DNA from: Myxococcota bacterium
GTDB taxonomy: Bacteria > Myxococcota > SpSt-1050
Direction of reading: 5' to 3'
Assembly: GCA_049969675.1 (NCBI GenBank)
Contig: JBMFOP010000034.1
Location: forward strand, 1 to 17,906
Length of the DNA: 17,906 bases
In this document: piece after piece, positions 122 through 17,861 of the stretch
Position numbering within the stretch: the first letter of the stretch is position 1
How the letters are laid out: every line of letters starts with the position of its first letter
The notes under the pieces: generated by a model
Seen by the model: only the letters and a program-made list of their open reading frames with translations
What the model was told of the DNA's origin: nothing
The model's database searches: none
Program-made: the position numbers and the translations under genes

Positions 122-181
122 TCAGAGCCGACGACGGATATTTAGATTGTATATAAATCCCTTTGTTACTCTCTCTGCCAT
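122..181 (-). other. 19-codon ORF MAERVTKGFIYNLNIRRRL with Shine-Dalgarno (leader peptide or truncated gene start)
   Basis: GAGGTGAGTGGAGGTAGG immediately before ATG 181; TGA at 124-122; downstream of the 330-358 promoter. Confidence 0.35.
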
Positions 182-329
182 CCTACCTCCACTCACCTCA
201 AAGAACATATTCTTAAAAAATGAAAATATCTTTTAGAATTTATTTACGCCAAATCAAAAATATATCCAAAGATACCGCCATACTTTATTCATAGGAAGCC
301 AGATTTTTGAGTTTTTGTGTGACAAAATA

Positions 330-358
330 ATCTTACCCTACCGAGTCTTTTATATCAA
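330..358 (-). promoter_or_regulatory. Putative sigma70 promoter firing leftward
   Basis: TTGATA (358-353), 17-nt spacer, TAAGAT (335-330); conserved in the second copy. Confidence 0.6.
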
Positions 359-363
359 AAAAA

Positions 364-423
364 TTATTTTGGACAGGGGAGGTGTTGATAATATGATGTC
401 TGGAGAGAATTTATTTTGGACAG
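364..423 (+). repeat. 13-bp direct repeat TTATTTTGGACAG
   Basis: Exact copies at 364-376 and 411-423, 47 bp apart. Confidence 0.85.
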
Positions 424-452
424 ATGTGATTCTTAACAGATGTGGTTTACTT

Positions 453-2354
453 TTATTGAATTACTCTTTCGTAAATTGTATCAAGGAATTTATTCATAAT
501 ATCGGCGCAGATTCTATACTTATTCTCCTTTAATGCATCAATCATACCCTTTAGCCAGTTTATCTCAGTTGAAGATATCTCTTCGCCTCTGCATCTTTTC
601 TCAATCAGTTCAAGGGCAAAGTTTCCAGCCCTGCCATAATCTTTTAATTTATTTATCCACGGTTTCATCTCAGTCATAAATCTATTATCTGATGAATCCA
701 TCAATATCTCATCCATCTCTTCAAATCTATCAAAAAAGTCCCGTCTTAAAATATTGTAATTAACAGATTCACATCTAACTATTTCGGAGAGAAAGTTATC
801 TATTGCAACCTTTAATTCTGGCGATTCTATATCTGTGATGAGTGAAGACCTTAGATTTGTTGCAAACTTATATATATCATTCTCTCTGCCATTTCTTGCA
901 AAGAATTTTATTGATTCTCTGAATGCATGTTCGCTCTCATATCGGTAAGGAGTCCAGAGCATATCAGCGATTGTACCGAGTGGGATGATTGAAGATATGG
1001 CATATCTCATTGGATTTGATGCGTACATATCGATCTTCTTGAATATTTGTGCCTCTCTACCCATAATAGGTCCCAGGAATGAGGCACCACCATTAAACAT
1101 CAAATCAGATACAGGATAGTTATCTGCAAGGATTGGAGTATCTTTAATAATAGATTCAATCTCAATTAAATCCTCCTCTGTAATCTCAGGTGAGACGACC
1201 TCAACACCGGTCCAGGCAATTTTGTAGAGCCCTCTCAATCCATCAGATATTTTTTTGAGATATGTGTCTTCTTTTGCCCATCTGGTGGTATAATCGTTTG
1301 GAACAAATGCAAGTAATATATCCGGTTTGAGTCTCTTTATATCTTCGTAGAGCCTTCTGGCAATATATACCTGCGCCTCTGCTATATCTGAAAATTTACT
1401 CTTATCCTCATCAGAGAGGATCTTCTGTGTATCATCAAATGCCAGAACCAGACAGGAGTCAAATCCAAAATCTATGAGTTTTCGGTATTTATAGAGCAGA
1501 GTTGTGTAATCTTTACTGTTTGAAAATTTTATATCATATCCGGGTCCTACTCCGTAACATGGGATAATTCCTAATCTCTTTGAATGTCTGGCAATCTCTC
1601 TGAGTTTGTTCTCTTCATTCTCATCAAAGGGGGTACGCCACATCGCCCAGGCATATGGGTCTGATTTGGGTGAATATAGGAAGATATTGTATCTCAACAT
1701 AGCAAGATATGTAATTGCATCAATTCGGTCCTTTTGGTCCCATGGCTTTCCATAAAATGCCTCAGCCACTCCTCTGAATTTCACATCAGGGAAGTCATAG
1801 ATTGCCATCTCAACAAGGGACTTTTTATAAATCAACTGCGATATTGATTTTGCCGCATTATAAAGACCCTCTAACTCATCTGCAACGATATAAATAAATA
1901 TCACATTCTCTTTATTGGAAATTTTTAAATAGTAGGCGCCTCCTTTATTTGGATAAGTAAAATTACACTTCTTAAATAACTCATTGAGTCCAGAAAAGCT
2001 ATGGACTTGAATCTCGGCACCATTTGAATAATTTCCATTATTATCATTGTTGAATTTTGAAAACTCATCAAAGAAATCTTTTAGTCTATCATTATCTTTT
2101 ATAGATACTCTGAATGAATCAGCTGCAATCCTCAAAAGAGTACCAAATGAGATCTTCGGTGCAGGGAATAAGACCTGATCATTTCTTTGATAATTATCGG
2201 GACAGATATCTGAAGGGAAAGGACTTAATGCATCTGTATCCGAAGTGACATCATTCAATTCAGCAGATATGTCCGAAGAGAGACTTATCTCTCTCAATTC
2301 ACAGGAGGATATAAAGATTAAGGATACAAAACCAATTAGGAAAGTATTGCGCAT
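453..2354 (-). CDS. GH84 family beta-N-acetylglucosaminidase (O-GlcNAcase/hyaluronidase-like), predicted lipoprotein
   Basis: GH84 motifs FRGVAEAFYGKPW, YSPKSDPY, catalytic Asp pair VLAFDDT and WTG; GH20b-like N-terminal domain (AYYLKIS...GLYNAAKSISQL); helical C-terminus. Start moved to ATG 2354 because GGAGG lies upstream and MRNTFLIGFVSLIFISSC is a signal peptide with lipobox. Confidence 0.88.
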   Translation of the reverse strand: MRNTFLIGFVSLIFISSCELREISLSSDISAELNDVTSDTDALSPFPSDICPDNYQRNDQVLFPAPKISFGTLLRIAADSFRVSIKDNDRLKDFFDEFSKFNNDNNGNYSNGAEIQVHSFSGLNELFKKCNFTYPNKGGAYYLKISNKENVIFIYIVADELEGLYNAAKSISQLIYKKSLVEMAIYDFPDVKFRGVAEAFYGKPWDQKDRIDAITYLAMLRYNIFLYSPKSDPYAWAMWRTPFDENEENKLREIARHSKRLGIIPCYGVGPGYDIKFSNSKDYTTLLYKYRKLIDFGFDSCLVLAFDDTQKILSDEDKSKFSDIAEAQVYIARRLYEDIKRLKPDILLAFVPNDYTTRWAKEDTYLKKISDGLRGLYKIAWTGVEVVSPEITEEDLIEIESIIKDTPILADNYPVSDLMFNGGASFLGPIMGREAQIFKKIDMYASNPMRYAISSIIPLGTIADMLWTPYRYESEHAFRESIKFFARNGRENDIYKFATNLRSSLITDIESPELKVAIDNFLSEIVRCESVNYNILRRDFFDRFEEMDEILMDSSDNRFMTEMKPWINKLKDYGRAGNFALELIEKRCRGEEISSTEINWLKGMIDALKENKYRICADIMNKFLDTIYERVIQ

Positions 2355-2516
2355 CGTCTGCCTCCATACAAAGTGAATTATTATCATAACCATCTATTTT
2401 ATTCAATCAATAAGGAGACACAAATGTCTTAAACCTTCCAATATTTTATTGAAATTCATTTATTATATGTTATTAAGTTGCTGGATTTTGCTAAGGGGAA
2501 GGATATAGACTATAAG

Positions 2517-4583
2517 ATGAAACTCGAAAGACTTGCCTCGCTCTATGAGTCAGTGGCGATATTGAATAGCTCGCTCAAATTAGAAGAGGTACTTAACAGA
2601 ACTATCAGTATTGCCCGTGAGGTACTCAATCTGGATAACTGTGCAGTACTCCTCTTTGATAGCAAAGAGGGTGTGCTCAGGATCTCAAGGGCTATCGGTT
2701 ATGATGAGAATATTATAAATACATTCAAGGTAAAGCCGGGAGTAGGTATATCTGGCTGGGTCTTTGAGCACAAAGAGGGTGTGGTAATCTCAAATGTTCA
2801 GAAGGACCCAAGATATATCAAAGGTGTGAGTGGGGCGATCTCTGAGATGGCTGTCCCTCTCATCGTTGACGACAATGTCATTGGTGTGCTGGATGCTGAG
2901 AGCAAGAGAGAGAATGCCTTTCTGGATGAAGACTTTATGATGTTTAAGATATTTGCATCAAATGTAGCAGTTGCGATCAGGAACGCAGATATATTAAACA
3001 AATTACTTGTCAGCAATCAAGAGCTCAAACAGAGGCTAAATGAGATCTCTACAATATCTCGTATTGCCAATTCTGTAAGCACCATTTTAGACATTGATGT
3101 CTTATTGCTAAAGATATTGAATCTGGTAAAAGAGACTCTCAACTTCACAAATTGCGCAATTCTGCTCCTTGATAGAAATACAGGGGTTTTGAAGGTAAGG
3201 GCATCAATCGGATATAAGGATGAACTGATAAAGAATCTGGCTATCAGACCGGGTGAGGGAATTACAGGAAGGGTTCTACTGTATGGTAGACCAGTTTTGA
3301 TAAAAGATATTAGAAGTGAACCCGGATATATAGAAGGTGTCAATGGTGGCAGGTCCGAGATATCTGTTCCATTAATCGTGAGAGATGAGGTCATAGGTGT
3401 TCTGGATGCAGAGTCTCCGATTCCAGATAAATTTTCTGAGAATGACCTGAATCTCTTCTCAGTATTTGCAAGTTATATATCCTCAGCTATTCACAATGCC
3501 GAACTCTTCTCCGAACTTGAGCAGAAGAATCAGGTTCTAAAGAAGAGTCTGAGTGAAATTGAGAAGATGAATCAGGATCTCATAAGATATGCAAATGAAG
3601 TCAAACAGATAAATGAGAAACTCAATAAGAGAATAGTTGAGATAACTACTGTATATGAGGCTTCAAAGACTATAATCTCCTCACTGGATCTGGAGGAGAC
3701 CCTACAATCAATAGTTATGCTCACCAATGACCTCGTAAAGTCCTCTGTCTCTGCAATCAAACTTATAGATGCAGATACTCTGGAGGTAAAAGAGAGAATA
3801 AGGCTTGCGAGTCAGGAGAGCGATACGGTTCAGGGATCTACTGGAAAGAAATTTGAGATACCACTTCAGATTGGAGAAAAGGTAATTGGTTATTTTGAAC
3901 TCGGTGATGTGGACCCCTCCACGATGGGAGAGGAGGAGAGACAGATTCTACATACGCTCGCATCTCAGGCGGCGATAGCAATTGAGAATGCAAGGCTCTT
4001 TGAGGAGACTCAGAGGACATATTATGAGACTATCAGGGGGCTCGCTCAGGCGCTTGAGGCGAGAGATGCCTATACGAGGGGACACTCTGAGAGAGTTACA
4101 AAATATGCGCTTCTTATCGCAGATGAACTCGGTCTTAATAATGACCAGAAACGATTGATAAGCTATGCTGGGTTATTACACGATATTGGTAAGATTGGAA
4201 TTGCAGACAATATACTCAACAAGAAAGCAACATTGACCCCTGAAGATAGAAAGGCGATAGAGAATCATCCGCTCTTTGGAGACCAGATTCTTGGACCAAT
4301 AAAGTTTTTGAAAGAGGCACAGAATATAGTCCTTCACCACCATGAAAAATATGATGGAAGTGGCTATCCTTCCAGACTCAAAGGAGAGGAGATTCCACTG
4401 CTCGCCCGAATAATAACAGTTGCTGATTCCTTTGACGCTATGACATCTGACAGGCCTTACAGGAAGGCCTTTAGTCTTGAAGAGGCGATCGCAGAACTTA
4501 AGAGGAAGTCTGGATCACAGTTTGACCCTAAAGTAGTAGAGGTCTTTGAAAAAATTATTGCCAAATACGGAATTATAAAGTAA
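2517..4583 (+). CDS. GAF-GAF-coiled coil-GAF-HD-GYP cyclic dinucleotide phosphodiesterase
   Basis: HD-GYP motifs EARDAYTRGHSERV, LLHDIGKIG, HHHEKYDGSGYP, ARIITVADSFDAMTSDRPYR; GAF signatures VPLIV..VIGVLDAES and ASQAAIAIENARL. ATG 2517 preferred over TTG 2478 because a purine-rich AAGGGGAAGGA lies upstream. Confidence 0.93.
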   Translation: MKLERLASLYESVAILNSSLKLEEVLNRTISIAREVLNLDNCAVLLFDSKEGVLRISRAIGYDENIINTFKVKPGVGISGWVFEHKEGVVISNVQKDPRYIKGVSGAISEMAVPLIVDDNVIGVLDAESKRENAFLDEDFMMFKIFASNVAVAIRNADILNKLLVSNQELKQRLNEISTISRIANSVSTILDIDVLLLKILNLVKETLNFTNCAILLLDRNTGVLKVRASIGYKDELIKNLAIRPGEGITGRVLLYGRPVLIKDIRSEPGYIEGVNGGRSEISVPLIVRDEVIGVLDAESPIPDKFSENDLNLFSVFASYISSAIHNAELFSELEQKNQVLKKSLSEIEKMNQDLIRYANEVKQINEKLNKRIVEITTVYEASKTIISSLDLEETLQSIVMLTNDLVKSSVSAIKLIDADTLEVKERIRLASQESDTVQGSTGKKFEIPLQIGEKVIGYFELGDVDPSTMGEEERQILHTLASQAAIAIENARLFEETQRTYYETIRGLAQALEARDAYTRGHSERVTKYALLIADELGLNNDQKRLISYAGLLHDIGKIGIADNILNKKATLTPEDRKAIENHPLFGDQILGPIKFLKEAQNIVLHHHEKYDGSGYPSRLKGEEIPLLARIITVADSFDAMTSDRPYRKAFSLEEAIAELKRKSGSQFDPKVVEVFEKIIAKYGIIK

Positions 4584-4615
4584 TCTAAAAGGGATTTTTG
4601 CGTGGAGGTATTATT

Positions 4616-7195
4616 ATGAAAAAGGCTATTTTATGCATCATAATTTTAATTTCACTACTATCCTTTTTCTCCTGTAGTGATGAGGCAACAGGGTGTAAGA
4701 AAAGTTCTGACTGTGGTGAGGGTTATATATGCAAGAATGGGAGGTGTGAGAAGAGGAGCACTACATATATAGACCTCGACAATGACGGAGTTGACGATGC
4801 GGTGGATAACTGTCCAACTGTCTCAAATCCGGATCAAAAAGATACAGACAGCGATGGAATTGGAGATATGTGTGATAATGATCTGGACGGAGATGGAGTA
4901 GACAACAATGATGACAATTGTATTGATGTTAAAAATCCCGACCAGAAGGATACAGATAAGGATGGGAAAGGTGATGCCTGTGATGATGATATTGATGGAG
5001 ATGGAATTAAGAATAAGGACGATAACTGCCCTGTGATAGCCAACCCGGACCAGAAGGATTCAAATAATAACGGTATAGGTGATGCCTGTGAAGGCGATTC
5101 TGATAAAGACGGCGTGACTGATGACATTGACAATTGCAAAGAGATATACAATCCCGACCAGAAGGATACAGATGCGGATGGGATTGGAGATGCCTGCGAT
5201 GATGATATTGATGGAGACGGAATAAAGAATTCTAATGACAACTGCCCCTATGTCTCAAATACGGATCAAAAAGATACAGACTTTGATGGGAAAGGGGATG
5301 CCTGTGATGATGATACAGATTTTAATACAGGTGGAAGTTATAACAACTCCTGTAAATATAAACCTCCAAGAGGTGCATTTGACCCTGTAATAAAGTGGGA
5401 GTGGAATGGTTCAAACATTCTACCTCAATACAATCAGGTGATGTCAACACCAATCATTATTAACACCAATGATGATAACAAGGATGGAAAGATTAACGAA
5501 AATGATATTCCAGATGTGGTAACAATCTCATTTTATACCTATTCTGGATGTGGTGGAATCTGTCTTGGGGCTGGAGTTTTAAGGATTCTTTCTGGAGATA
5601 CCGGCGCTGAACTATTCCCAGGAGATGGATTTGTCATCTCGGAGAATTACAGACTTGCACCAGCCAGCAATATCGCCGCGGCAGATATTGATAAGGATGG
5701 AAAAGTGGAGATAGTTGCACTCAGATATACAACAGATGGCCCTGTTGTATTTGATAATCGGGGGAATATCAAATGGCATTGTGCACAGTCCAATCTCAAC
5801 AACTGTGTAAAATATGCAGATCTTCACGCTGGACTTGATTGGGGTGGACCTTCAATCGCTGACATTGACGGGGACGGATATGGGGAGATTATTGTGGGTG
5901 CTGCTGTATGGCAGTACAACGGTGTCAGAAGATGGGTGGGCAATAAAGGTATAGGAGATAATGGCGTAGGACCTCTCTCTGCTGTCGCTGATATAGATGG
6001 TGATGGAAAGATGGAAATAATCACAGGCAGCACTGTCTATAATTTTGATGGCACCATAAGATGGACAGATATTCCAGACCCATCCGGGACGGGGACACTG
6101 GGCGATGGATTTGTAGCAATTGCAGATTTTGATAAGGATGGTAAACCAGACCTTGTGGTGGTCTCAAAGGGAACTATCAGATTACAGGATGCCCGAACAG
6201 GTGCAATTAAGTGGGGACCGTTTGATGTGCCAGCCTCTGATGGAAAGAGGGTTGGGGCTCCAACCATTGCAGATTTTGATTCAGATGGAGAGCCAGAGAT
6301 CGGTGTGGCGGGATATTCTGGATATGTGGTCTTTGAAACCAACGGCGCAGTAAAATGGCTGAGCCCAACTAAAGACAGGAGCTCACATGCTACCGGTTCA
6401 TCTCTATTTGATTTTGAGAATGACGGGTATGTAGAGGTCCTATATAATGACGAAGAAAAATTTAGGGTCTATGATGGAGAGGGCTCATCAAAGGATGAGA
6501 ACAACGACGGATACAATGACGGCATCGTCTTATTTGAACAGACAAATACCAGCTGGACGGCATATGAGAATCCAGTAGTGGCAGATGTTGACAACGACGG
6601 GAAGGCAGAGATTATAATATGTGCAAATAATTATACGAGAGAGACCGGAAACCCGACTGGTATTAGGGTATTCAAAGACAAAAATGACAACTGGGTACAT
6701 ACCAGAAGAATCTGGAATCAGCACACCTATCATATTGACAATATTAACGAAGATGGATCACTACCAGCAAGAGAGGCGGCATCCTGGACAACTCATAATA
6801 CTTACAGATTAAATAAGTTTGCAGGAGATATCCCATTTGCGGCACCAGACCTTGTAGCGACATGGCTTGCAGTCGATTGGTATAGCTGTCCTGCTCAATT
6901 TACAGTATGGGTCTGGATAGAGAATAGGGGTGCTCTAAAGGTTCCAGCCGGTATCCCCGTCGCCCTCTTCAATGGAAACCCACAACTTGGAGGGACATTA
7001 CTTGCGATTGTAAATACTAAATATGTCCTTGAGCCGGGTGACTCCGAAAAGGTAAAATTCGTTATCAATAATCCACCAAAGAAAGTAGATATCTACATCT
7101 GGGTCGATTACGATGGTGCTGCCTCCACAAAGAATGAATGTAATGAGTCAGATAACCTTTATAAAGGATTTGACTTTGAATGTAGTGAATTATAA
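4616..7195 (+). CDS. Surface lipoprotein with Cys-rich motif, thrombospondin type-3 Ca-binding repeats, FG-GAP/VCBS beta-propeller and C-terminal CARDB-like domain
   Basis: GGAGG before ATG 4616; lipobox [39 protein letters not shown] repeats; multiple ADxDxDGxxEI motifs; terminal PDLV...IENRG...NECNESDN. Confidence 0.88.
4772..5311 (+). repeat. Five tandem 108-bp (36-aa) thrombospondin type-3-like coding repeats
   Basis: Unit D.D.DG.....DNC....N.DQKD...[DN]G.GD.C.. repeated five times; also visible in DNA, e.g. AATCCCGACCAGAAGGATACAGAT occurs twice. Confidence 0.9.
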
Positions 7196-7213
7196 TTCAG
7201 AGGTCTGGGGTAT

Positions 7214-9004
7214 TTGAGATTTAAGAGAGGCTCTTTTAGCTTCAAACTCTTTGCAATATCCATATTAATTGGAATTATATTTGCCCTTATCTCTGTGCTG
7301 GCAAATAACTATTTTATAAACAGGATAGTCTTTAAAGTTACTGAAGAGAGGGCAAATTCAACACTTAATTATATTGAACATTTACTCAGATCAGAAGAGA
7401 GAGATTTAAATGAGTTGAATCTAACAACCCTTTTTCAAAAGGGGGAGATGCTCTGTCTTGCTTTATATGATGAGAATGGAAAACTTTTATCAAAGACTGG
7501 AAGTTATGATTGTAATGCACCTAAAGTCATACCCTCTTTTAGGTATTCATCCAGCAAAGATGAGAATGGATATTATAATTTTATAAAAAAGGTCTTTGGG
7601 ATAAGGACTTCCAATAATATTTCTGATGGATATTTAGTGCTTGCACTTGATTTGAGATATGTCAAACATCTTGTTGAACCAATAAATCAGTTCAGAATAT
7701 ACTTCTTCATATCAATAATTCTACTTCTATTGGTCTTTATTTATTATACAACAAGGCATCTTGTTATACCTATTGAGAGGGCGATTATGACCCTGAGGGA
7801 TATGACAGAGAAGGGTTTTGTGAATATTGATATAGATGATGATAATTATGACGAAATAAAAGAGATACTGTATAGATTTAGAGATATCCAGACTTCTCTA
7901 AATTCTATTCAATTCAACTTTCGCACCTCTGAGGAGAGACTGAAGACCCTACTTAATAAGACCGGAGATGTCATTTTAATGCTGGATGAGAATTTTAAGA
8001 TTGAGTATGCAAGCAGTACATTTAATAATATTCTAGGAATAGATTTGAACAGAGCGGAGAGCAGATTGCCATTCTCAGAGTTTCTCACCAATGAAGAACG
8101 ACGGAGATTGTTACCATATTTAAGAAAAATCCTGAGAGGAGAATCTTCACAGGATTTTCAACTAAAATTGAAAGATAAAAATGGGGAAGAGGTATTCCTG
8201 TTGACCTCCTGGATACTCAGAGAGAATCTGAATCATAAGGGCGGCGGAATAATTATCTTTGGTAAAAATATTACAGAACATAAAAAGATTGAGGAGATTT
8301 TGAGGAAGAGGACAGAGGCACTTGAGACAATACTATTCTCACTCTCTCACGACCTGAAGGGCCCTGTCTTCACCTTAAAAGGAATGACGACACTCTTTAA
8401 GCAGCAATATTATAATTCTCTAAACGAACAGGGACAGCATTTCATTGACAGGATAAATGAGAGTATCCTTAAGCTTGAGAGAATGATATCAAATATGTTA
8501 GATATAATTAGATTTGAGAGACAGGTATTTAAGATGGAGGAGGTAAATCTAAATGAACTTATAGGATATCTATGTTCAGATATGAAGGATTACATTGAGG
8601 AGTGTAATGCAGAACTAAGGCTCCTAAACGAGTTACCCACAATAAAGGGAGACAAAGACAAAATTTATATAGTCTTTAAAAACCTCCTTGAGAATGCATT
8701 AAAATATAGGAGCACTGATAGAAAATGCATAATAACCATTGAGGCTAAAAGCAATGAAAAAGGTGTAGAGATTCTTTTTGAAGACAACGGTATTGGGATA
8801 GAGAGCAGTTTTTTAGATAAACTCTTCAAACCTTTCTCAAGGGCAGGTGCACCCTCTCATAATATGCCATCTGGATACGGTATAGGCCTTGCAATTGTAA
8901 AAGGGATTCTGGATGCACATAATTCTGAGATAAAGGTTGAGAGCTCCTATGGAGAGTGGACAAAATTCAGAATATTTTTTGATAGGTCAATGTTAATCGG
9001 ATAG
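7214..9004 (+). CDS. Membrane sensor histidine kinase (2 TM, periplasmic domain, HAMP-like linker, PAS, HisKA, HATPase)
   Basis: H box SLSHDLKGPV, N box VFKNLLENALKY, G1 EDNGIGI, F box LFKPF, G2 GYGIGLAI; PAS ending GKNITEHK. TTG start 18 nt after the previous stop; start uncertain. Confidence 0.92.
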   Translation: MRFKRGSFSFKLFAISILIGIIFALISVLANNYFINRIVFKVTEERANSTLNYIEHLLRSEERDLNELNLTTLFQKGEMLCLALYDENGKLLSKTGSYDCNAPKVIPSFRYSSSKDENGYYNFIKKVFGIRTSNNISDGYLVLALDLRYVKHLVEPINQFRIYFFISIILLLLVFIYYTTRHLVIPIERAIMTLRDMTEKGFVNIDIDDDNYDEIKEILYRFRDIQTSLNSIQFNFRTSEERLKTLLNKTGDVILMLDENFKIEYASSTFNNILGIDLNRAESRLPFSEFLTNEERRRLLPYLRKILRGESSQDFQLKLKDKNGEEVFLLTSWILRENLNHKGGGIIIFGKNITEHKKIEEILRKRTEALETILFSLSHDLKGPVFTLKGMTTLFKQQYYNSLNEQGQHFIDRINESILKLERMISNMLDIIRFERQVFKMEEVNLNELIGYLCSDMKDYIEECNAELRLLNELPTIKGDKDKIYIVFKNLLENALKYRSTDRKCIITIEAKSNEKGVEILFEDNGIGIESSFLDKLFKPFSRAGAPSHNMPSGYGIGLAIVKGILDAHNSEIKVESSYGEWTKFRIFFDRSMLIG

Positions 9005-9090
9005 TAATATGAATGAGATAGTTGCAGTAGTCCTTAATGGAGGGCTGGCATAAAAAACTTTATTGATATCGCTAAAAGTTGTCCGGGTCA

Positions 9091-9240
9091 TTATAATATT
9101 TGATGAGTTTCACTAAACATAAATGCCAGTAGGCCACCACTTATGACTGGCGATATATAAAGAAATAGAACACAGATGATTATCAATATCGTCATCTCTA
9201 AAAGACTCGCCTTTCGCTTTTTTCTCTTCTCCTCTTCCAT
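9091..9240 (-). CDS. Putative 49-aa membrane microprotein MEEEKRKKRKASLLEMTILIIICVLFLYISPVISGGLLAFMFSETHQIL
   Basis: Translated by hand: ATG 3 nt after the stop codon of 9244..11115; basic N-terminus followed by a long hydrophobic stretch; fills the intergenic gap; below the ORF-track length cutoff. Confidence 0.6.
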   Translation of the reverse strand: MEEEKRKKRKASLLEMTILIIICVLFLYISPVISGGLLAFMFSETHQIL

Positions 9241-9243
9241 TCT

Positions 9244-11079
9244 TTATTCACTATGTAATTCCATAATCTTATCAAACATTATTTTGATCTGTTTTATACC
9301 AACACTTCTGGTCTCCTCATAATGATCACCCGGTGCAGATGAGAAATATGGATAATCATCTGAAAGCCTAAAATCGTATTCTGGCACTAAATAGCCCAGA
9401 AAGTCATTTCCGAGTATGGCAAGTATATTTACTTTCCCATTCATTATGTCTCTGATATATGGTCCTTCTGGTGCCTTTGATAAATCGGGTGGATATTCAT
9501 TTGAATCATCAATGATTGGATGTCCAAAAGAATATTCATATGGCTCACTATAACCACCTACTGCAAGCTCCGGGAATAATTCACCGGGTATAGACAGAAT
9601 CTCTATATCCCCAATTCTTATCATTGTAACCTCAGTCATAATCTCTACATTATCAATCCAGTTCTCTTTATTGGGGTCAATCTTCCATTTAGGCCTATCT
9701 CTTAACCATCCAAGGTCAAACATCATCCAGAAGAATTTATTTTCAAGAGGAATCTTATATTCAATCTTCTTTGCCGAAATATTAAGATTGTTTATATATT
9801 CTGCCTCCTTTGAAAGTTCATACACCTTTCTTGCAATATTATAGCCAACCTGTCTTACTGCCTTAAATGATGTCTCTTTCTCAATTATATTTCCATCATC
9901 ATCATATACCTTCAGATTCAAATCTGTAATCATCCCTCCCAGTGGCCCCTGAATAAAGAGTGCCATTCCATTGCTGGGCGGTATCTGATTCTTACCTTCA
10001 TTGATTCCATTTTCAATTGCCTCTCGTAGATAATAGACATAGTCAGAACTCAATAGATTGCTATCCCCCGCGAGTTTTTCCGGATGAGAGCCCCAATTTA
10101 TAACCGTTGCAAGTCTGTTCTTGTTCAGGTCCTCAAAGATTACAACAGACATATGGTCATCAATAATGAATGGGTCTCTTAAATCGTTAGCCATCTGCTC
10201 AATCCCAACCCTCTTTGTAATGGCTCTTACTCTCCCCTTCTGCATTGATGTGCCTGCTGAGATTATTGTATCAACTACCTTTCCCATAACCTCTTTTATA
10301 TATGAATCATCCGCTCCACTCTCGTAAGGAACCTCGCTAAATGGGTCCTGCGGACCCCACATCCCCACAGTGTCAATACTTGAGTGTGTATGTGAACTCA
10401 TAATTAGAATTTCATCTATACCCAATCCGGCTGCGCGCTCTGAGATGAGTCTTCTTATTCTATCTACATCACTCTTAAAAAATCCAATTAGATCCAGAGT
10501 TGAGAGTGCAACAGTCTTTTTATTATGTCTTAATACCAGTGTCCTTACAGAGATATCATCGTGCACACCAATCATAGGAGTGGATGAACTATAGCCAGCT
10601 ATCCAGTATCCCTGAAACTTCCCATCCCCTTCAGAGCCGTCTGCGTCCGGCCCTGTATAATTCTCATCTGTAGGACAGATTCTATCCCTCCCACAGTCGT
10701 AGAAGAAATCCGACTTCCACTTTTTAGATAGGGATTTCCATTTCTTAAGGTCAATGCTCCCACAGTTCCCGGGTCCATCATAATCCGGGCAATATGAATG
10801 TGTAGTTAATAACTCCCTTTTAACCAGTTCATATCCTTGAGGCGTGATGCTCGCTGATGCAACTCCTATGCAGATTATCCCATCTTCGGATGAATCACAA
10901 TCAGACCGAGGACCAATATAGATATCCAAACCAGAATCTTCATCTGATATATCATTTGAAAGGGCATCTGATTCTGCCTTATCTGATAGGTAAATTATCT
11001 CATTTGAAGGACAGGCGAGCAGCAGTAATAAGATAAGAAAGGCGAGAGAGGAATATTTAATATACTGTCCAAACATCAT
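9244..11079 (-). CDS. Neutral/alkaline ceramidase-superfamily metallo-amidohydrolase, predicted lipoprotein
   Basis: Motifs GVHDDISVRTLVL, STLDLIG, SSHTHSS, NWGSHPE, IPGELFPE, LGNDFLGYL, HYEET; lipobox LLAC. Start uncertain (11115, 11106, 11079 or 11076); 11079 gives a normal signal peptide length. Confidence 0.75.
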   Translation of the reverse strand: MMFGQYIKYSSLAFLILLLLLACPSNEIIYLSDKAESDALSNDISDEDSGLDIYIGPRSDCDSSEDGIICIGVASASITPQGYELVKRELLTTHSYCPDYDGPGNCGSIDLKKWKSLSKKWKSDFFYDCGRDRICPTDENYTGPDADGSEGDGKFQGYWIAGYSSSTPMIGVHDDISVRTLVLRHNKKTVALSTLDLIGFFKSDVDRIRRLISERAAGLGIDEILIMSSHTHSSIDTVGMWGPQDPFSEVPYESGADDSYIKEVMGKVVDTIISAGTSMQKGRVRAITKRVGIEQMANDLRDPFIIDDHMSVVIFEDLNKNRLATVINWGSHPEKLAGDSNLLSSDYVYYLREAIENGINEGKNQIPPSNGMALFIQGPLGGMITDLNLKVYDDDGNIIEKETSFKAVRQVGYNIARKVYELSKEAEYINNLNISAKKIEYKIPLENKFFWMMFDLGWLRDRPKWKIDPNKENWIDNVEIMTEVTMIRIGDIEILSIPGELFPELAVGGYSEPYEYSFGHPIIDDSNEYPPDLSKAPEGPYIRDIMNGKVNILAILGNDFLGYLVPEYDFRLSDDYPYFSSAPGDHYEETRSVGIKQIKIMFDKIMELHSE

Positions 11080-11341
11080 AGGGTATAAAATATATGATTT
11101 TACCATATTTGGCAAACTTTTTATTAATGTAAATCAAAATGAATATGCAAAAGGAATCCAGAGGTCTGGACTAAACAATAGGGAAAGGGGCTATGGGCAA
11201 TTCTGAGTGAATTAAAATAAAGATGATTCAGTGCAATTAAAAATCTACCTTAATCTGATAAAGATTGTATGTCCATAGTGCATCCAGAAATGTAGAACAG
11301 TCTGGATTTGTATCGTCACAACTGATATTATTATAAGATAT

Positions 11342-13405
11342 TTATTGATGTGCTGGGCTTATAACGATTTTGCAGCCGTCCTCTTTGCAAATAAGTGTCT
11401 TTGAGGCATCTTCTCCATAGAACCTGATTAATGTTTCAAGTATTCTCCTGTTTTTAATATCTCCAGAGAATATGAGTTTATTCGGAGATATTCCACATTC
11501 ATAAAGTCTCTTTATAGCCTCCTCTGAACTCCTCCTTGAAATGACGAAGCGTGCAGCGGTGGGAGGGCAGTTTTCGGTATCATTGAAGATATATGTTATA
11601 AATCCAGACATGTTGATAAATACATCACCCTTTTCAGAGGTTTCAATCTTCCCGTTCTCTTCTTTTGTATACAGATGGTCTTTGATATAGAGGTCGTCAG
11701 CCTCATTAAGGTTTGTATAAAGGACCTTTACCAACCGCTTCTTTCTCAGGAATTCTACTGCCGTTCTTTTATCTCTATTGCTTGCCTTTCCCAGTATTAA
11801 ATGAGGTCTTAAATCCTCATCTATAAAAGTTATTACTCCATCCTGAACTATAATTGAGGGTTCTGTTTTGTTCCTTTCAATCCGGTCCATTATTAGCGAT
11901 GTGATAATCAGAATTAAAAGAAGTGAGGGTATAACAATCTTTGTAAAAGGTATTCTCTCTCTCAAAATGAATGTAAAGATTATCGCAAAATAGATGGCTA
12001 TTTCAAAAATAGAAGGTGCAAATATCTTGATATGTGAAAGTGGGAGATTTGCAAAGAGTTCATTAAGTTTTATGAAGTGCTCTATTGATGAAAATGCCCC
12101 ATTAAAGAAGAATCCTGCAAGGCTCAGTGATATACCAAACGATATTACTCCGCACAGAATTATAGGGAGTATTATAACTCCCACAAACGGCACGATTATG
12201 AGATTTGCAATTATCCCGATAATTGAAATAATGCCAAAGTGATATGCAACAACTGGAAGTGTAAAGAGTGAGGCAGCAAGAGAGGTGAGAAGTAGTATCA
12301 GGATATATCTAATTATCTCACCTCTAATTGATTCTCCTCTAATCTCCCATCTATTGGTAATAGAGGGGATTAATGTAATTATTCCAGATACTGAGAGGAA
12401 AGAGAGCTGAAATCCTATATCTCTGATTGAATCAGGGTTGTGGCTTGTAATCAATAGGAAAGAGATGCAGAGTGATGATAGTATATCCCTTTCCCGTTCA
12501 ATCAGTACTGAGAACAGATAGACAATAACCATTATTGTTGCCCTTACCACAGAAGGTGAGTTGCCAAAGTAAAATGAGACAATAATTAGAATTGGTATAA
12601 GGATAAGAGAAGATGCCTTCTTCAGAGAGAATGGTCTGATTAGAGAAAAGGGGAATATCAGAAGTTTGACAATATAGTACAGGAATAGGGCAATCAGTCC
12701 TATGTGTGTCCCCGATATCGCAAGGATATGCGATGTCCCATTTATGGCGAATATCCTTCTTAATTCATATGTAAGCCCTTTTGAATTTCCAGTTGAGAGT
12801 GCAGACATTATCAGGGCAGCAGAGCCTTTGTAGTGAGAGTATATAAATCTGCTTATACCCTCTTTATATCCATCAATAGCATTGTAGATTCCAAACCCCT
12901 CCCTCTCAATAACCAGTGGAGGATTATTTAAATCTGATATGCAATCTGGTATTTGCCCCTTATCAATATATATCCTGCAACGAGCCCTTACAAGGTCGTT
13001 CCTGATAGGTTCTGCAAATGGAATTGAGGCAATATATTGCATATTAAACGAAGTAATATGTAACTCATCAGCCTGAATATATCTCTGAACATTTATTTGA
13101 TATATTGTAGAATCTCTATTGTAGTAAGGTGTATCTATTACATATCCGTCAAAGACAATATTCCCTTCTTCTATATTGATTTTTCTACCATCTTTATTGT
13201 TCAGTGCGCAGAGAAATGCTGCCCACAAAATACCGCCCAAAATAATTCCCTTTCTATCAATACCAACCCTCTTAAGAGTTATGAGTACCAAACACAATAT
13301 GTAAATTGAGAGAATAATTGCTATTGTTATGAGGGATACTCTTATGTTTATAAAAATCAGTAAAGATAGGAGATATGGGAATGTAAACCAATAAATAGCC
13401 GCCAT
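11342..13405 (-). CDS. comEC: ComEC/Rec2 DNA uptake channel (OB-like domain plus Competence domain, divergent C-terminus)
   Basis: GTSHILAISGTHIG, SPSVVRATIM, NP...DIGFQLSF, TLPVVAYHFG..S..GIIANLI.VP; many transmembrane segments. Confidence 0.9.
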   Translation of the reverse strand: MAAIYWFTFPYLLSLLIFINIRVSLITIAIILSIYILCLVLITLKRVGIDRKGIILGGILWAAFLCALNNKDGRKINIEEGNIVFDGYVIDTPYYNRDSTIYQINVQRYIQADELHITSFNMQYIASIPFAEPIRNDLVRARCRIYIDKGQIPDCISDLNNPPLVIEREGFGIYNAIDGYKEGISRFIYSHYKGSAALIMSALSTGNSKGLTYELRRIFAINGTSHILAISGTHIGLIALFLYYIVKLLIFPFSLIRPFSLKKASSLILIPILIIVSFYFGNSPSVVRATIMVIVYLFSVLIERERDILSSLCISFLLITSHNPDSIRDIGFQLSFLSVSGIITLIPSITNRWEIRGESIRGEIIRYILILLLTSLAASLFTLPVVAYHFGIISIIGIIANLIIVPFVGVIILPIILCGVISFGISLSLAGFFFNGAFSSIEHFIKLNELFANLPLSHIKIFAPSIFEIAIYFAIIFTFILRERIPFTKIVIPSLLLILIITSLIMDRIERNKTEPSIIVQDGVITFIDEDLRPHLILGKASNRDKRTAVEFLRKKRLVKVLYTNLNEADDLYIKDHLYTKEENGKIETSEKGDVFINMSGFITYIFNDTENCPPTAARFVISRRSSEEAIKRLYECGISPNKLIFSGDIKNRRILETLIRFYGEDASKTLICKEDGCKIVISPAHQ

Positions 13406-13423
13406 ATAAATAACAGAGTAAAG

Positions 13424-13451
13424 AAAATATCACAAAATGGGGTATAGTCAA
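13424..13451 (-). promoter_or_regulatory. Putative comEC promoter
   Basis: TTGACT-N16-TATTTT with extended -10 TG; 18 nt upstream of ATG 13405, which has no Shine-Dalgarno. Confidence 0.35.
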
Positions 13452-13490
13452 AGTCTATATGAAATAGAAGGGCTTCTTTGAAAAATCCCC

Positions 13491-13519
13491 TTTACAAACA
13501 ATTACATATCCTGTATAAA
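13491..13519 (+). promoter_or_regulatory. Putative promoter of the hybrid kinase
   Basis: TTTACA-N17-TATAAA upstream of GTG 13538. Confidence 0.35.
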
Positions 13520-13537
13520 ACCCTACATCTGTCTTTG

Positions 13538-15958
13538 GTGATAAGGCTAAGGCTTTACATAATAATATTGATAGCTCTCTCATTCAATCTATGGGCAAGA
13601 CCAGAGAGGATAAGTGTAATTATTGATAATAACTATCCTCCTTATTCTTTTATAGATGAAGATGGGGTGCTTAAGGGGATATCTATTGACTACTGGAGAT
13701 TGTGGGAGGAAAAGAACAAAGTAAAGGTCAATATTGTGGGTGATAGCTGGGAAAATGCACAGAGGCGGATGGAGGAAGGGGAGTTTGATGTAATTGACAC
13801 ACTGTTTTACACAGAGGGGCGTTCAAAGAAGTATGATTTCTCAAAGCCATATGCCAGAATAGATGTTGTGATATTCTTTGAAAGCACACTCTCTGGGATA
13901 ACCGATGTAAAATCAATTAAAGGCTTAAATGTGGGAGTAAAGAAGGGGGATGCAAATATTGATTTTCTAAAAAAGAACGGGGTTGAGTATCTAATTGAAT
14001 TTGATAATTACGAAGATGTAATTCGGGCGGCAAGAGACGGAAAGATAAAGATATTTGTAATTGATAAGCCACCTGGTATTTACTTCTTATTTAAATATAA
14101 ACTTGAAGATAGGTTTAGATTCTCAGAGCCTCTCTATTGGGGTGAATTTCATCGTGCTGTCAAAAAGGGGAATAAAGAATTGATATCCTTTATTGAATCT
14201 GGATTTGAAAGTATATCCGGAGAGGAGAAGGGGCATATAGAGAAGAGGTGGCTCGGATATTCATTAAGTAATCGTCTAAATACAAGATTTATCAAAATCT
14301 TACTCCTCATTGTCTCTGTACTTGCATTGATACTCTCTATTACATATTTCTGGATAATCTCACTCAGGCGGATGGTGAGAGAGAGGACAGCAGAGTTAAG
14401 AAGTGAGAAGGAGAGGGCTGAAAGATTTGCCAGTGAGTTACTTGAGACCGAGAAGAGATTCCTGAATCTCTATAGAAATATCCCCGATATAATCTATACA
14501 ATGAGTCTGAACGGGCAGTTTCTTGAGATGAATCCATCGGGACTCGCTTATCTCGGATATAATGAATCAGACCTCAAGGATTTGAGGATGGAGAGACTTA
14601 TTGTTGAAGAGGATTTAGAGCGTGCCAGAAAGGGGATAGAGGCGAGACTGTCGGGGGAATCCGGGCCAATGGTATTTAGAGTAAAGAAGAAGAATGGAGA
14701 GATTTTATATATTGAGACCCGTGGTGCACTTCTCTACAAAGATGGGAAGCCCTATGCAATACAGGAGATCGGGAGAGATATCACAGAGCAGAAGAAGATG
14801 GAGGAGAGGCTACTTGAGTCTCAGAAGCTTGAATCTTTGGGACTTCTGGCTGGTGGTATTGCACACGACTTCAATAATATCCTTATGAGCATTGTAAACT
14901 ACATTGAATTTATTAAGAAGGATTATGGGAACAAAGATCTCTTCTTTCAGGATATAAAACACCTGAAAAATTCCGCAGATAGGGCTACGAGATTGGTGCA
15001 ACAATTACTCGGATTCTCACGAAAACAGATGATACTCCCGCAGGTAATGGATGTAAATGAGCACATAACTCATTTTGTCAGTTCGATATCCAATCTTCTG
15101 GGGGAGAATATAAAGACAGAGCTGAGACTGTCAGAGAAGAAGCCTTTTATATTTGCAGATAGATCACAGTTTGAGCAGATATTGATGAACCTCGCAGTAA
15201 ACTCAAGGGATGCAATGCCAGATGGTGGAAGATTGATCTTCTCTACAGAGATAGTAAAGCTCTCAAATGAGATTGAAGGGAACAACATCTATTCAGGTGA
15301 TTTTGTAGTAATCTCGGTTAAGGACACTGGCTGTGGTATAGAGGAGCATAATTTGAAGAAGGTATTTGAGCCATTCTTTACTACAAAGCCAGTTGGAAAG
15401 GGGACGGGACTCGGTCTCTCAATGGTATATGGTGCAATGAAACAGAACGGTGGATTTGTCAGGATTGAGAGTAAGGTCGGTTTTGGAACGGAGGTATGGC
15501 TCTATTTCCCTCTCTCAGAGAAGAGAAGTGAGATGCCTCTTAATAATGTTGAAGCCCATCTGTCAGATGGGAGATTTGAGACAGTTCTGCTTGTTGAGGA
15601 TGATAATGATGTAAGATTTGTAATAAAGCAGATACTTGAGGCACACAATTATAATGTAATAGAGGCAAAAAATGTTGGAGAGGCGATAAAGGAGTTTGAA
15701 TTGAATTCTGATATGATAAGACTGGTGATAACAGATATTCTGATGCCAGATAACAATGGGATAGATCTCAAAATACTCATTCAGAAAAAATATCCGGATA
15801 CAAAATTCCTATTCATAACAGGTTACTCTGAAGAGGTATTAAAGACAAAGGGGATAGAGCTTGAAGGTACAGAGATATTATACAAACCTTTTAATTCTGA
15901 AAAGATCTTGAGGGCTATTGATAGGGTTCTGGAACATAAAAGAGATCCACTCTGTTAG
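13538..15958 (+). CDS. Hybrid sensor kinase: periplasmic solute-binding (family 3) domain, TM, PAS, HisKA, HATPase, receiver
   Basis: DNNYPPYSF..G...GISID and R...YDFSKPY (binding domain); H box AGGIAHDFNNIL; QILMNLAVNSRDAMP; FEPFFTTK..GKGTGLGL; receiver VEDD/ITDILMP/TG/KP. GTG 13538 is a likelier start than TTG 13478, given the promoter-like element between them. Confidence 0.93.
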   Translation: MIRLRLYIIILIALSFNLWARPERISVIIDNNYPPYSFIDEDGVLKGISIDYWRLWEEKNKVKVNIVGDSWENAQRRMEEGEFDVIDTLFYTEGRSKKYDFSKPYARIDVVIFFESTLSGITDVKSIKGLNVGVKKGDANIDFLKKNGVEYLIEFDNYEDVIRAARDGKIKIFVIDKPPGIYFLFKYKLEDRFRFSEPLYWGEFHRAVKKGNKELISFIESGFESISGEEKGHIEKRWLGYSLSNRLNTRFIKILLLIVSVLALILSITYFWIISLRRMVRERTAELRSEKERAERFASELLETEKRFLNLYRNIPDIIYTMSLNGQFLEMNPSGLAYLGYNESDLKDLRMERLIVEEDLERARKGIEARLSGESGPMVFRVKKKNGEILYIETRGALLYKDGKPYAIQEIGRDITEQKKMEERLLESQKLESLGLLAGGIAHDFNNILMSIVNYIEFIKKDYGNKDLFFQDIKHLKNSADRATRLVQQLLGFSRKQMILPQVMDVNEHITHFVSSISNLLGENIKTELRLSEKKPFIFADRSQFEQILMNLAVNSRDAMPDGGRLIFSTEIVKLSNEIEGNNIYSGDFVVISVKDTGCGIEEHNLKKVFEPFFTTKPVGKGTGLGLSMVYGAMKQNGGFVRIESKVGFGTEVWLYFPLSEKRSEMPLNNVEAHLSDGRFETVLLVEDDNDVRFVIKQILEAHNYNVIEAKNVGEAIKEFELNSDMIRLVITDILMPDNNGIDLKILIQKKYPDTKFLFITGYSEEVLKTKGIELEGTEILYKPFNSEKILRAIDRVLEHKRDPLC

Positions 15959-16818
15959 AGAAAGTATTTATACCCAATTAGTTTATAAACAAGTTTAGCG
16001 GCTAAAAAATCGGATGATATATCTGGGGGAAGTGGGGAGAGCTCCACCACATCTGCTCCAACCACATTTCTATTCTTAAATACCTCTCTAAGAAGCCTGA
16101 GAATATCATACCATAACAACCCACCCGGCTCCGGAGTTCCGACTGCCGGCATTATGGATGGGTCAAGTCCATCAAGGTCTATCGTGATATACACATTTTC
16201 TGAGAGATGGGAGATTACTTCATTGATATACTCTGGATGTCCCTTTATATACTCTGAATAAAAAATCTTTATTTTGTTTTTTCTGATAAATGCCGCTTCT
16301 TCCTCACACATAGAGCGAATACCTACCTGAACAGCAGGGCAGAGCTCTCTTATTCTCCGCATTACACAGGCATGATTATATTTTGTCCCTTCGTAACTAT
16401 ACCTCAGATCGGAGTGTGCATCTATCTGTAAAACTGAAAAATTCTTGTAACTTTTTACCAGATTTCTCACCACCCCTGTTGAGATGGAGTGCTCACCACC
16501 CAACATAATCAGAAATTTTCCATCTGAAATAAATCTTTTAGATGCCCATTCTATCTCCTCTATCATATCTGCTGGAGAGGACATAATCGGTTCGAGCTCA
16601 GAGGATGTATGAATCCCCACCTTGAAAGGAGAGGCATTTAATTCTATATCATAAAATTCAAGTGCCTTTGAGGCGGAAATAATTGCAGATGGTCCATTCC
16701 GTGAACCAGCCCTGTATGAGAGTGTTGCGTCGTAAGGGACCGGGAATATTACTACCTTGCTCTTCTTGTAATTGGTATATCTCTCTTCAAATCCACCGAA
16801 ATTATACGGAATAAGCAT
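15955..16818 (-). CDS. speB: Agmatinase (ureohydrolase family)
   Basis: GSRNGP, GGEHSIS, DAHSD, DLDGLDPS..PAVGTPEPGG, DVVELSP; lies directly downstream of the arginine decarboxylase gene. Confidence 0.93.
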   Translation of the reverse strand: MLIPYNFGGFEERYTNYKKSKVVIFPVPYDATLSYRAGSRNGPSAIISASKALEFYDIELNASPFKVGIHTSSELEPIMSSPADMIEEIEWASKRFISDGKFLIMLGGEHSISTGVVRNLVKSYKNFSVLQIDAHSDLRYSYEGTKYNHACVMRRIRELCPAVQVGIRSMCEEEAAFIRKNKIKIFYSEYIKGHPEYINEVISHLSENVYITIDLDGLDPSIMPAVGTPEPGGLLWYDILRLLREVFKNRNVVGADVVELSPLPPDISSDFLAAKLVYKLIGYKYFL

Positions 16819-16832
16819 AATGAATAACTAAT

Positions 16833-17471
16833 TTATTTTTCATCAATTATTGGGAGTAGTGGTGCCTCAACAACCTTCTTTCTCCTGTTTCTGTCCCTGA
16901 GTTCTTTCTTTATCTCATCATCAATGTAGACAAATACCGCCCCTGCCACGACAGTTGTCCAGAGCCCATTTTTATCTCCCTCTGCAGACTGTGTAATATT
17001 TCTGGTTCGGATTATCTTACCGCTCATTCTGTAGATCTCTTTTCTCTCATCGTAAGCGGTATTTGGGTCAAATTGAATTCCGAGAGTACTCGCGAGCATT
17101 GTTGCAGCGAGGTCTTCAGAGTAGTCTCCGGACTTCTTCTCTGTCTCTCCATAGCCGTGATGCTCAGAGATGTATCCGTAGTGGTCTCCCTGTGCTGGAA
17201 CGGCGAGACCTATTGAGGCACTGATAAGTCTATTTGGCTCATTGGTGGAGTTCTGTGCAAGGACCACATATGTAATCTGCCCCGGTTTTAGTGCGGCGAT
17301 TCCGCGCGAGCGAGGGATAATTTTGCAGTTGGGAGGGAATATAGAAGATACTCTTACAAGATTGCATTTCTCAATGCCAGCATCTCGTAGTGCCATTTCA
17401 AAAGATTGAAGTTTCTCCTTATGTCTTCCAACACCTCTTGTAAAAAATACGCGATTGGGCACGAAGTTCAA
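16833..17471 (-). CDS. pdaD: Pyruvoyl-dependent arginine decarboxylase proenzyme
   Basis: [23 protein letters not shown] with the Ser-Ser autocleavage site; [19 protein letters not shown] start with AAGGAGG upstream; 14 nt from speB. Confidence 0.92.
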
Positions 17472-17789
17472 TTCCTCTCCTCCTTAAGAAGGTTCTGAGC
17501 AGTTTATCTAAAGTATTTTTAAATTTTGTCAACTAAATAAATTTTACACACATAATAGATGGCATCTTCTCCTTTGATATGAGTAAAAATTTTATTCAAT
17601 TATTTCTGAATGTCACTGTTGTCCAGAATAATCTGATTTGAAGTTGACTATTTCTAAAATAAAGATTCTGAATGGGAAACTCCACTTAATGAATGAGCCT
17701 ATTCAAATTGACAGGATAACATTTCTACAAATCACCCTGAGCGTTAAATCTCTCTATTCATCTCTTTGCCCTTATATCTCTCGCCGCCT

Positions 17790-17861
17790 TCACATCTGCC
17801 AAAAATAAATCTTTTTTGATATGGAAGCCTCGGTAGGGTAAGACCAATTTGTCAAACAAAA
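17790..17861 (+). repeat. Right copy of the duplicated promoter-containing module
   Basis: Contiguous 72-bp version of the element that is split at 313-362 and 409-429. Confidence 0.9.
17816..17844 (+). promoter_or_regulatory. Putative sigma70 promoter firing rightward
   Basis: TTGATA (17816-17821), 17-nt spacer, TAAGAC (17839-17844); AAAGGAGGTG follows at 17867-17876. Confidence 0.5.

What the first reader, a model, noticed from the sequence alone, without database searches (positions are those of the whole stretch)
313..17861. A ~70-bp promoter-bearing module brackets the whole 17.5-kb gene block as an inverted repeat
Seen: 313-362 (TTTTGTGTGACAAAATAATCTTACCCTACCGAGTCTTTTATATCAAAAAA) matches the reverse complement of 17812-17861 at 43/50, and 409-429 matches the reverse complement of 17790-17810 at 19/21. 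Each copy holds TTGATA-N17-TAAGA[T/C] pointing out of the block, and much of the promoter spacer (CTCGGTAGGG) is identical, which ordinary promoters do not share. No transposase or recombinase is encoded between them. Inference, three alternatives: (a) a dispersed leader/promoter cassette driving loci just outside the window, such as cassette arrays or CRISPR-like arrays; (b) decayed ends of a non-autonomous mobile cargo block; (c) recombination sites for inversion of the block. The mixed core-like gene content favours (a).
Basis: partly seen in the sequence, partly recalled or inferred. Interest (0 to 1): 0.78.

Follow-up and report, generated by a model that had tools for sequence, protein, structure and literature searches.

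The report
Two decayed IS4 transposon left ends
The two matching stretches are worn left ends of an ordinary IS4-family jumping gene that left about 60 such copies across this genome; the promoter-like site in them likely once drove the element's own transposase, so the apparent bracket around the gene block is most likely coincidence.

Summary
The match is real (43/50 and 19/21) but not special to this block. The module occurs about 63 times in the 3.05-Mb genome. It is the left end of an IS4-family insertion sequence (DUF4372 + DDE_Tnp_1 transposase; IS4Sa-like ends; 9-bp target duplications): terminal repeat, TTGATA-17-TAAGAT, ribosome site, transposase start. It aligns with the left ends of intact 1.4-kb elements from other bacteria, and DUF4372 remnants follow the right copy. 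The promoters point into each element. Over the whole module the two copies are no closer than average (0.725 versus median 0.708). Genes downstream of copies are 23 sense and 24 antisense. A congener has the right junction in the same gene order with no insert. Copies crowd assembly breaks, and breaks bound this window. No intact transposase of the family was found in the assembly. By-product: all 18 intact left ends tested can pair the promoter region with the ribosome site, a likely lock against read-through that has eroded in both window copies. The scan reported the same family before on other DNA of this genome. Ordinary mobile-DNA debris.

The parts
154..380 (-). Left remnant: IS4-family left end plus eroded first codons of the transposase gene (matches positions 3-197 of intact element L050)
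   Evidence: nhmmer E 1.1e-6; alignment A1
364..380 (-). Worn left terminal inverted repeat of the left remnant; tip faces the gene block
330..358 (-). Promoter-like TTGATA-17-TAAGAT, inferred transposase promoter, pointing into the element
   Evidence: TTGAAG-17-TAAAAT at the same place in intact L051
290..292 (-). Transposase start codon; the ribosome site before it is mutated and the frame is broken by stops
413..428 (-).
   Evidence: exact pattern hit; same 52-nt stretch at C29
429..444 (-). Third, degenerate terminal-repeat copy overlapping the end of the GH84 gene's trailer
   Evidence: seen directly; similar doubled ends at C23 and C5
17614..17790 (-). Separate remnant of the same family in the opposite orientation: right terminal repeat at 17614 fused to a DUF4372-type transposase fragment, cut off exactly where the right copy starts
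   Evidence: fusion motif in 7 places
17791..17906 (+). Right remnant: IS4-family left end; runs across the assembly gap to contig position 18056 (positions 1-250 of L050), then a scrap of the transposase C-terminus; no right terminal repeat found after it
   Evidence: nhmmer E 4.4e-22; DUF4372 hit
17816..17844 (+). Promoter-like TTGATA-17-TAAGAC, inferred transposase promoter
17870..17885 (+). Ribosome site followed by a 10-bp deletion that removes the start codon; the same motif occurs at 5 places in the genome, not in the left copy

Best explanation
The two matching stretches are left ends of an IS4-family insertion sequence, two of about 63 such copies in this genome; they likely inserted independently, and their promoter-like site likely drove the element's own transposase gene, which is now broken. 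Shown: copy number, the terminal repeats, homology to intact 1.4-kb elements, DUF4372 and DDE remnants, 9-bp target duplications at some copies, loss of the element's middle. Inferred: the parent element spread by DDE transposition; internally deleted shells were then likely copied further in trans (MITE-like), since deletion marks are shared by dispersed copies; copies have since decayed. In intact elements the promoter region is predicted to pair with the ribosome site, which would silence transcripts entering from outside; this pairing has eroded in both window copies. The bracket likely arises because copies are common and sit at assembly breaks, and two such breaks bound this window.
For: 63 near-full copies. 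15 DUF4372 matches in the genome, one directly after the right copy. A complete 446-bp shell at C88 has left end, a 53-codon DUF4372 frame (E 1.9e-11), transposase C-terminus and right end. Intact relatives carry the same terminal repeats (L056: both 16-mers exact) and pass NF033592 at 250-256 bits against a cut-off of 115. The left arm matches intact L050 at 72% over 130 nt. Perfect 9-bp duplications in 23 of 39 loci with candidate ends (79 examined). In this genome 10 of 47 facing end pairs have a 9-bp repeat with at most 1 mismatch, against 5 of 1954 random pairings. Remnants cover the element's ends 40-57 deep and its middle 0-5 deep. Window pair identity 0.725 against median 0.708; partner ranks 42 and 12 of 62. 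16 of 63 copies point at a break within 500 bp against 3.3% expected; 2 of 63 have a break on the other side. Expected segments with copies at both ends 0.32, observed 1 of 198. Terminal-repeat counts: G000 151, G003 77, G001 3, G002 3. G002 has 128 bp between the same two genes where this genome has 728.
Against: Neighbouring copies on one contig are divergent like this in 7 of 13 cases and convergent in 1, a skew only partly explained by assembly breaks. 36 of 47 end pairs show no duplication, and neither window copy is complete enough to test. No intact transposase of the family is in the assembly, so the mobiliser is not seen. The exact insertion point against G002 cannot be fixed, as the intergenic DNA is only about 76% alike. 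RNAalifold found no consensus structure for the left ends.
Confidence: 0.93

Rival explanations
1. IS-derived as above, but the promoters were kept by selection to drive neighbouring host genes.
For: Good sigma-70-like boxes persist: TTGATA in 34 of 63 copies; TAAGAT, TAAAAT or TAGAAT in 35 of 63. The right copy points at a same-strand gene about 330 bp on.
Against: Next genes are 23 sense, 24 antisense, 16 none on the contig, with no common type. The -10 box (0.81) is less conserved than A/T columns of the leader (0.89). The gene after the right copy has its own TTGCAT-17-TAAAAT, matched in G002, which lacks the insert. The left copy likely faces a convergent gene. No Rfam match and no array in the window.
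Confidence: 0.03
2. The two copies act as recombination sites that invert the 17.5-kb block (option c).
For: They are inverted and homologous, so rare homologous recombination is possible in principle (established knowledge). Gene order is much shuffled among congeners.
Against: Only 72.5% alike over the module. Order across the right junction equals G002 for six genes. The gene next to the GH84 gene in G002 and G003 lies at the end of contig C64 here, as the ancestral order predicts (the join itself is not assembled). No recombinase among the 9 proteins. No joints in one run's contigs (weak).
Confidence: 0.02
3. The copies are the ends of a non-autonomous composite element that carried the block (option b).
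For: They are genuine transposon ends, and IS pairs can mobilise DNA between them (established knowledge).
Against: Both are left ends whose tips face the block; outer right ends were not found. They belong to different sub-lineages (10-bp deletion in the right copy only). The block is three pieces in congeners, and its outer neighbours are conserved where testable. All three congeners have most of these genes.
Confidence: 0.02

Closest known systems
IS4 family, IS4Sa-like subgroup (De Palmenaer, Siguier and Mahillon 2008, PMC2266710; NCBIfam NF033592; Pfam PF14294 + PF01609)
   Same: Ends begin CA with T at position 9; intact relatives are about 1.25-1.41 kb with one ORF, a Y(2)R(3)E(6)K motif and 9-bp duplications; all fit Table 1 for IS4Sa (1150-1750 bp, 8-10 bp).
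   Different: The window copies are fragments with no transposase and no paired ends. Subgroup placement rests on end signature, size and duplication length; no tree with named members was built.
Prokaryotic MITEs made by internal deletion of an IS (as defined in PMC3852290; IS4-derived example listed there for Haloquadratum walsbyi, 237 bp, 34 copies)
   Same: Short, gene-less, terminal repeats kept, middle deleted, many copies, shared deletion marks among copies.
   Different: Copies are heterogeneous (facing end pairs about 56-900 bp, about 71% pairwise identity) and carry nested other repeats; most lack duplications; the two window copies are single-ended relics, not complete MITEs.
IS10/IS50/IS200 protection against outside transcription (Davis, Simons and Kleckner 1985, seen only as a reference title; IS200 in PMC4513863, passages)
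   Same: An inverted repeat in the left end can bury the transposase ribosome site.
   Different: Here the 5' arm lies in or near the predicted promoter spacer in most elements, so it would be present mainly in read-through RNA (the IS10 logic, recalled), whereas the IS200 stem lies within the 5' UTR. Predicted only.

Membership tests
IS4 family (parent element) | DDE transposase passing the IS4 family model | tested here: met
   Intact relatives L051, L056, L074 score 250-256 bits on NF033592, cut-off 115. Genome remnants match L051 at up to 75% identity. Remnants alone stay under the cut-off (51 bits).
IS4 family (parent element) | Y(2)R(3)E(6)K motif | tested here: met
   Read directly in the printed L051 and L050 proteins. 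My regular expression was one residue short and returned none. The C12 remnant keeps only the part from the W before E onward.
IS4 family (parent element) | Target duplication of about one helix turn | tested here: met
   9 bp in 23 of 39 related loci with candidate ends and in 10 of 47 end pairs in this genome against 5 of 1954 controls. Not testable for the two window copies.
IS4 family (parent element) | Terminal inverted repeats and a single ORF | tested here: met
   16-bp repeats with 0-4 mismatches around one 376-403-aa ORF in the full-length cases.
IS4Sa subgroup | End signature CA------T, size 1150-1750 bp, duplication 8-10 bp | tested here: met
   Table 1 of PMC2266710; the IS50 signature (CA at 13-14) is not met.
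IS4Sa subgroup | Transposase clusters with named IS4Sa members | not tested
   Member names seen in supplement 5; end alignments there are pictures; no named sequences fetched.
MITE | Both terminal repeats, no intact gene, internal deletion of a parent IS | tested here: met
   Met by genome copies such as C88:942-1387 and 43 left-right pairs; the two window copies have lost their partner ends.
MITE | Amplified after deletion by a transposase in trans | tested here: inconclusive
   Shared marks: start-codon deletion motif at 5 places, junction motifs at 7 and 4 places, left-part break at position 221 in 3 and at 259-261 in 5 of 14 chained elements. Gene conversion or repeated deletion at the same sites is not excluded.
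Composite transposon | Two IS copies with intact outer ends, one shared duplication, cargo moving as a unit | tested here: not met
   Outer ends not found; cargo not a unit in congeners.
CRISPR or cassette-array leader | Repeat array or cassette sites downstream of the promoter | tested here: not met
   Downstream of copies lie transposase remnants and unrelated host genes; no Rfam hit. The left copy runs into a contig end, so beyond it is unseen.
Invertible segment | Both orientations in the population, or a nearby recombinase | tested here: inconclusive
   No recombinase in the window; no joints in short contigs of one run; ancestral order at the right junction. No raw or long reads available.

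The most novel reading that the evidence does not exclude
In DUF4372-type IS4 elements across many phyla, the transposase promoter region doubles as an anti-ribosome-site arm that co-varies with its own start region: a family-wide lock that silences read-through RNA but is largely absent from the element's own transcript. The window's modules are dead copies of that lock. Own pairing beat shuffles at p <= 0.05 in 17 of 18 intact left ends and beat the mean cross-element pairing in 18 of 18. I found no description for this group in six searches, though the principle is known from IS10.
Probability: 0.6. Interest if true: 0.3.

Novelty: new member of a known kind. Interest (0 to 1): 0.1.

Why it matters
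Little on its own: the bracket is two relics of a common insertion sequence. It is a useful caution that windows cut at assembly breaks are enriched for repeats at both ends. The one point of value is the predicted promoter-to-ribosome-site hairpin shared by intact DUF4372-type IS4 elements, which is cheap to test with reporters and would extend a known IS10-type safeguard to a large, little-studied group.

Tried and rejected
Rfam and tRNA scans of the window: nothing. The generic promoter scan found 69 sites against 58.9 +/- 8.2 in shuffles, and neither copy's site is among the 60 shown, so consensus matches alone say nothing. RNAalifold on 16 left ends gave no consensus structure; the alignment was poor and two rows had badly chosen limits, so I used per-element pairing tests instead. 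Sequencing runs: no RNA holder listed, so transcription starts could not be tested. The one DNA holder is kept as short contigs, may be the source sample, and showed no joints. The ends of C64 and C34 do not overlap, so the left join is inferred from synteny only. The 264-codon DDE_Tnp_1 frame on C173 is not among the tblastn hits of the family's transposase and was rejected as the parent. DUF4372 and DNA searches in 30 relatives found the family only in G003. An early idea that window 1-97 was an integron attC site and 120-150 a tRNA-end attachment site (recalled likeness) was dropped when both proved to be dispersed repeats with 16 hits each. One review I tried to read by a recalled id was not held. 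A search of the IS4 paper's supplements for the end motif found nothing because the end alignments are pictures; they could settle the subgroup.
Full report
Observation. The inverted match is there: 43 of 50 and 19 of 21, with TTGATA-17-TAAGA[T/C] in both copies. The window is bases 1-17906 of contig C34 (28,881 bases) of a 3.05-Mb, 188-contig assembly. It begins at the contig's start and ends at a run of N. Between the copies lie nine ordinary genes: a GH84 hydrolase, a GAF/HD protein, a TSP3/FG-GAP protein, two histidine kinases, a ceramidase-like protein, ComEC, an arginase-family enzyme and a pyruvoyl arginine decarboxylase.

The module is a genome-wide repeat. Iterated nhmmer gave 67 hits, 63 of them covering at least 60% of a 96-position model (the 4 shorter or weaker ones were dropped from later counts). 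All start at one sharp boundary. A second, related 20-mer often faces it 56-900 bp away. A 16-letter pattern for both ends, with 1 mismatch, hits 151 times here, 77 in congener G003 and 3 each in G001 and G002; reversed-pattern controls gave 0, 1, 0 and 3.

What it is. After the promoter-like site come a ribosome site and an ATG that opens a DUF4372-type frame. The genome holds 15 DUF4372 matches, all short or broken, one beginning 19 bases past the window's right end. A 446-bp copy on C88 has everything in miniature: left end, 53 codons of DUF4372 (E 1.9e-11), a scrap of transposase C-terminus and a right end. A 107-residue remnant on C12 is nearest to NF033592. It pulled 79 loci from public genomes. 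The intact ones are about 1.25-1.41-kb elements with one ORF. L051, L056 and L074 pass NF033592, and L051 and L056 carry PF14294 plus PF01609. L056 has both 16-bp ends exactly as here. The left end of L050 (a 389-codon ORF) aligns with both window arms from terminal repeat to start codon. Perfect 9-bp duplications flank 23 of the 39 loci with candidate ends (many are copies within one genome, so not independent). In this genome 10 of 47 facing pairs have a 9-bp repeat, 4 exact and 6 with one mismatch, against 5 of 1954 random pairings (the 47 include 4 left-left pairs and one double count). Table 1 of PMC2266710 (passages, section 6 and supplement 5 seen) fits IS4Sa. Mapped on L050, 133 genome fragments cover the first 200 and last 200 bases 40-57 deep and the middle 0-5 deep: the internal-deletion pattern of MITEs (PMC3852290, passages). 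No intact transposase of the family was found in the assembly.

Anatomy in the window. Left: element positions 3-197 at 379-154 on the minus strand, with two more terminal repeats stacked outside at 413-428 and 429-444, then two unrelated short repeats and the contig end. Right: a minus-strand relic (right end at 17614 plus a transposase fragment) abuts the plus-strand left end at 17791. That copy has lost its start codon by a 10-bp deletion whose motif occurs at 5 places in the genome, crosses the gap and fades out by about 18100 without a right end. Both promoters therefore point into their own elements, and both tips face the block.

Is the pairing special? Over the whole module it is 0.725 against a median of 0.708, with 40% of pairs as close; each copy ranks its partner 42nd and 12th of 62. 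Copies point at a contig end or gap within 500 bp in 16 of 63 cases (3.3% expected), and have a break behind them in 2 of 63. From those rates 0.32 of the 198 unbroken segments should have a copy at both ends; one does, this window. Against this, neighbours on one contig are divergent in 7 of 13 cases and convergent in 1, which I explain only in part.

Relatives. The block is not a unit elsewhere: 453-9004, 9244-11115 and 11342-17471 lie on different contigs with other neighbours in the congeners. In G002 six genes keep their order across the right junction, with 128 bp where this genome has 728. G001 has another gene there, and G003's contig ends 110 bp on, so this holds in 1 of 3. On the left, G002 and G003 both have a convergent gene whose orthologue sits 579 bp from the end of contig C64 here; G001 lacks the GH84 orthologue, and the C64-C34 join is not assembled. 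G003 has the family but no terminal-repeat hit on either matching contig.

Promoter role. Next genes are 23 sense, 24 antisense and 16 none (ORFs of 120 codons or more, my own calls). The spacer is the least conserved part (0.77), the terminal repeat the most (0.91), and the -10 box (0.81) is below leader A/T columns (0.89). The shared spacer thus reflects descent. The gene after the right copy has its own TTGCAT-17-TAAAAT, matched by TTGCTT-17-TAAAAT in G002. No RNA run was listed, so activity is untested.

How the left end likely works. I took 18 of the 79 loci: those with a readable left end and start codon, near-identical copies dropped; several remain close kin. In all 18 the region upstream pairs with the 23 bases ending at the ATG better than shuffled sequence on average, at p <= 0.05 in 17, and better than the mean pairing with other elements' start regions in 18; it is the best of all partners in 7. 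The arm ends 42-57 bases before the ATG. With rough sigma-70 weights from memory it falls in or near the predicted spacer in most, and the ribosome site is more buried in read-through RNA than in the predicted own transcript in 15 of 17 that could be scored. Fold z-scores are -6.4, -4.8 and -3.7 for L050, L056 and L051 but +0.4 and -0.2 for the window copies; among the 63 copies 117 of 177 changed stem cells break the pair. RNAalifold found no consensus on a poor alignment. Burial of transposase start signals is cited for IS10 in PMC13181058 (passages) and shown for IS200 in PMC4513863 (passages). Davis, Simons and Kleckner 1985 I saw only as a reference title; its read-through-specific detail is recalled. 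Passages of PMC8450116 and PMC4265352 added nothing on this point. Searches showed no account of this hairpin in DUF4372-type elements; most subscription papers are not covered.

Earlier notes. Three reports on other pieces of this genome reached the same family; I had stated this reading before the look-up and tested it here.

Verdict. A real feature, ordinary in kind: two relics of an IS4-family element, likely independent insertions. Interest 0.1.

Noticed in passing
window 1-97: A separate GC-richer palindromic repeat, 16 BLAST hits in the genome; contig C51 starts with the same 97 bases (97.9%). In several copies it lies just inside a left terminal repeat of the IS family.
   Followed up: partly
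window 108-163: Another short dispersed repeat, 16 hits including contig position 25166-25218; several copies are followed by a TTCTTGAC promoter-like stretch before a gene. Origin unexplained.
   Followed up: partly
G000 genome-wide; contig C34:18100: Small palindromes nested in the IS shells: one just after the transposase start codon (motif at 15 places) and a GTAGGGGC-type motif at 81 places. They resemble REP-type repeats (label recalled, not tested).
   Followed up: no
window 364-444: Three left terminal repeats stacked in tandem; doubled left ends also occur at C4, C5, C23, C74 and C86. May mark repeated insertion or adjacent rearrangement at old ends.
   Followed up: partly
window 17790/17791: One remnant is cut exactly where an oppositely oriented left end begins: either a nested insertion or a transposase-made adjacent deletion.
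   Followed up: partly
window 4804-5320: Four 108-bp thrombospondin type 3 repeats in the 865-aa protein; orthologues are 1005 and 1045 aa in G001 and G002, suggesting repeat-number change.
   Followed up: no
window 9004-9244 and 11115-11342: The real synteny breaks against all three congeners lie inside the block, around the ceramidase-like gene, where no IS end was found.
   Followed up: partly
L009 (G000:C173:1-842): An open 264-codon DDE_Tnp_1 frame on a tiny contig, not matched by this family's transposase: a different insertion sequence.
   Followed up: no
L041:1027-2952 and L039:7683-9724: The GH84 orthologue in G003 has two in-frame stops, and ComEC in G002 is in two ORFs; pseudogenes or assembly errors.
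   Followed up: no
window 1-17906: Run X1 differs from the window at 33 single bases and one deletion, so it holds a close strain or a mixed population.
   Followed up: no
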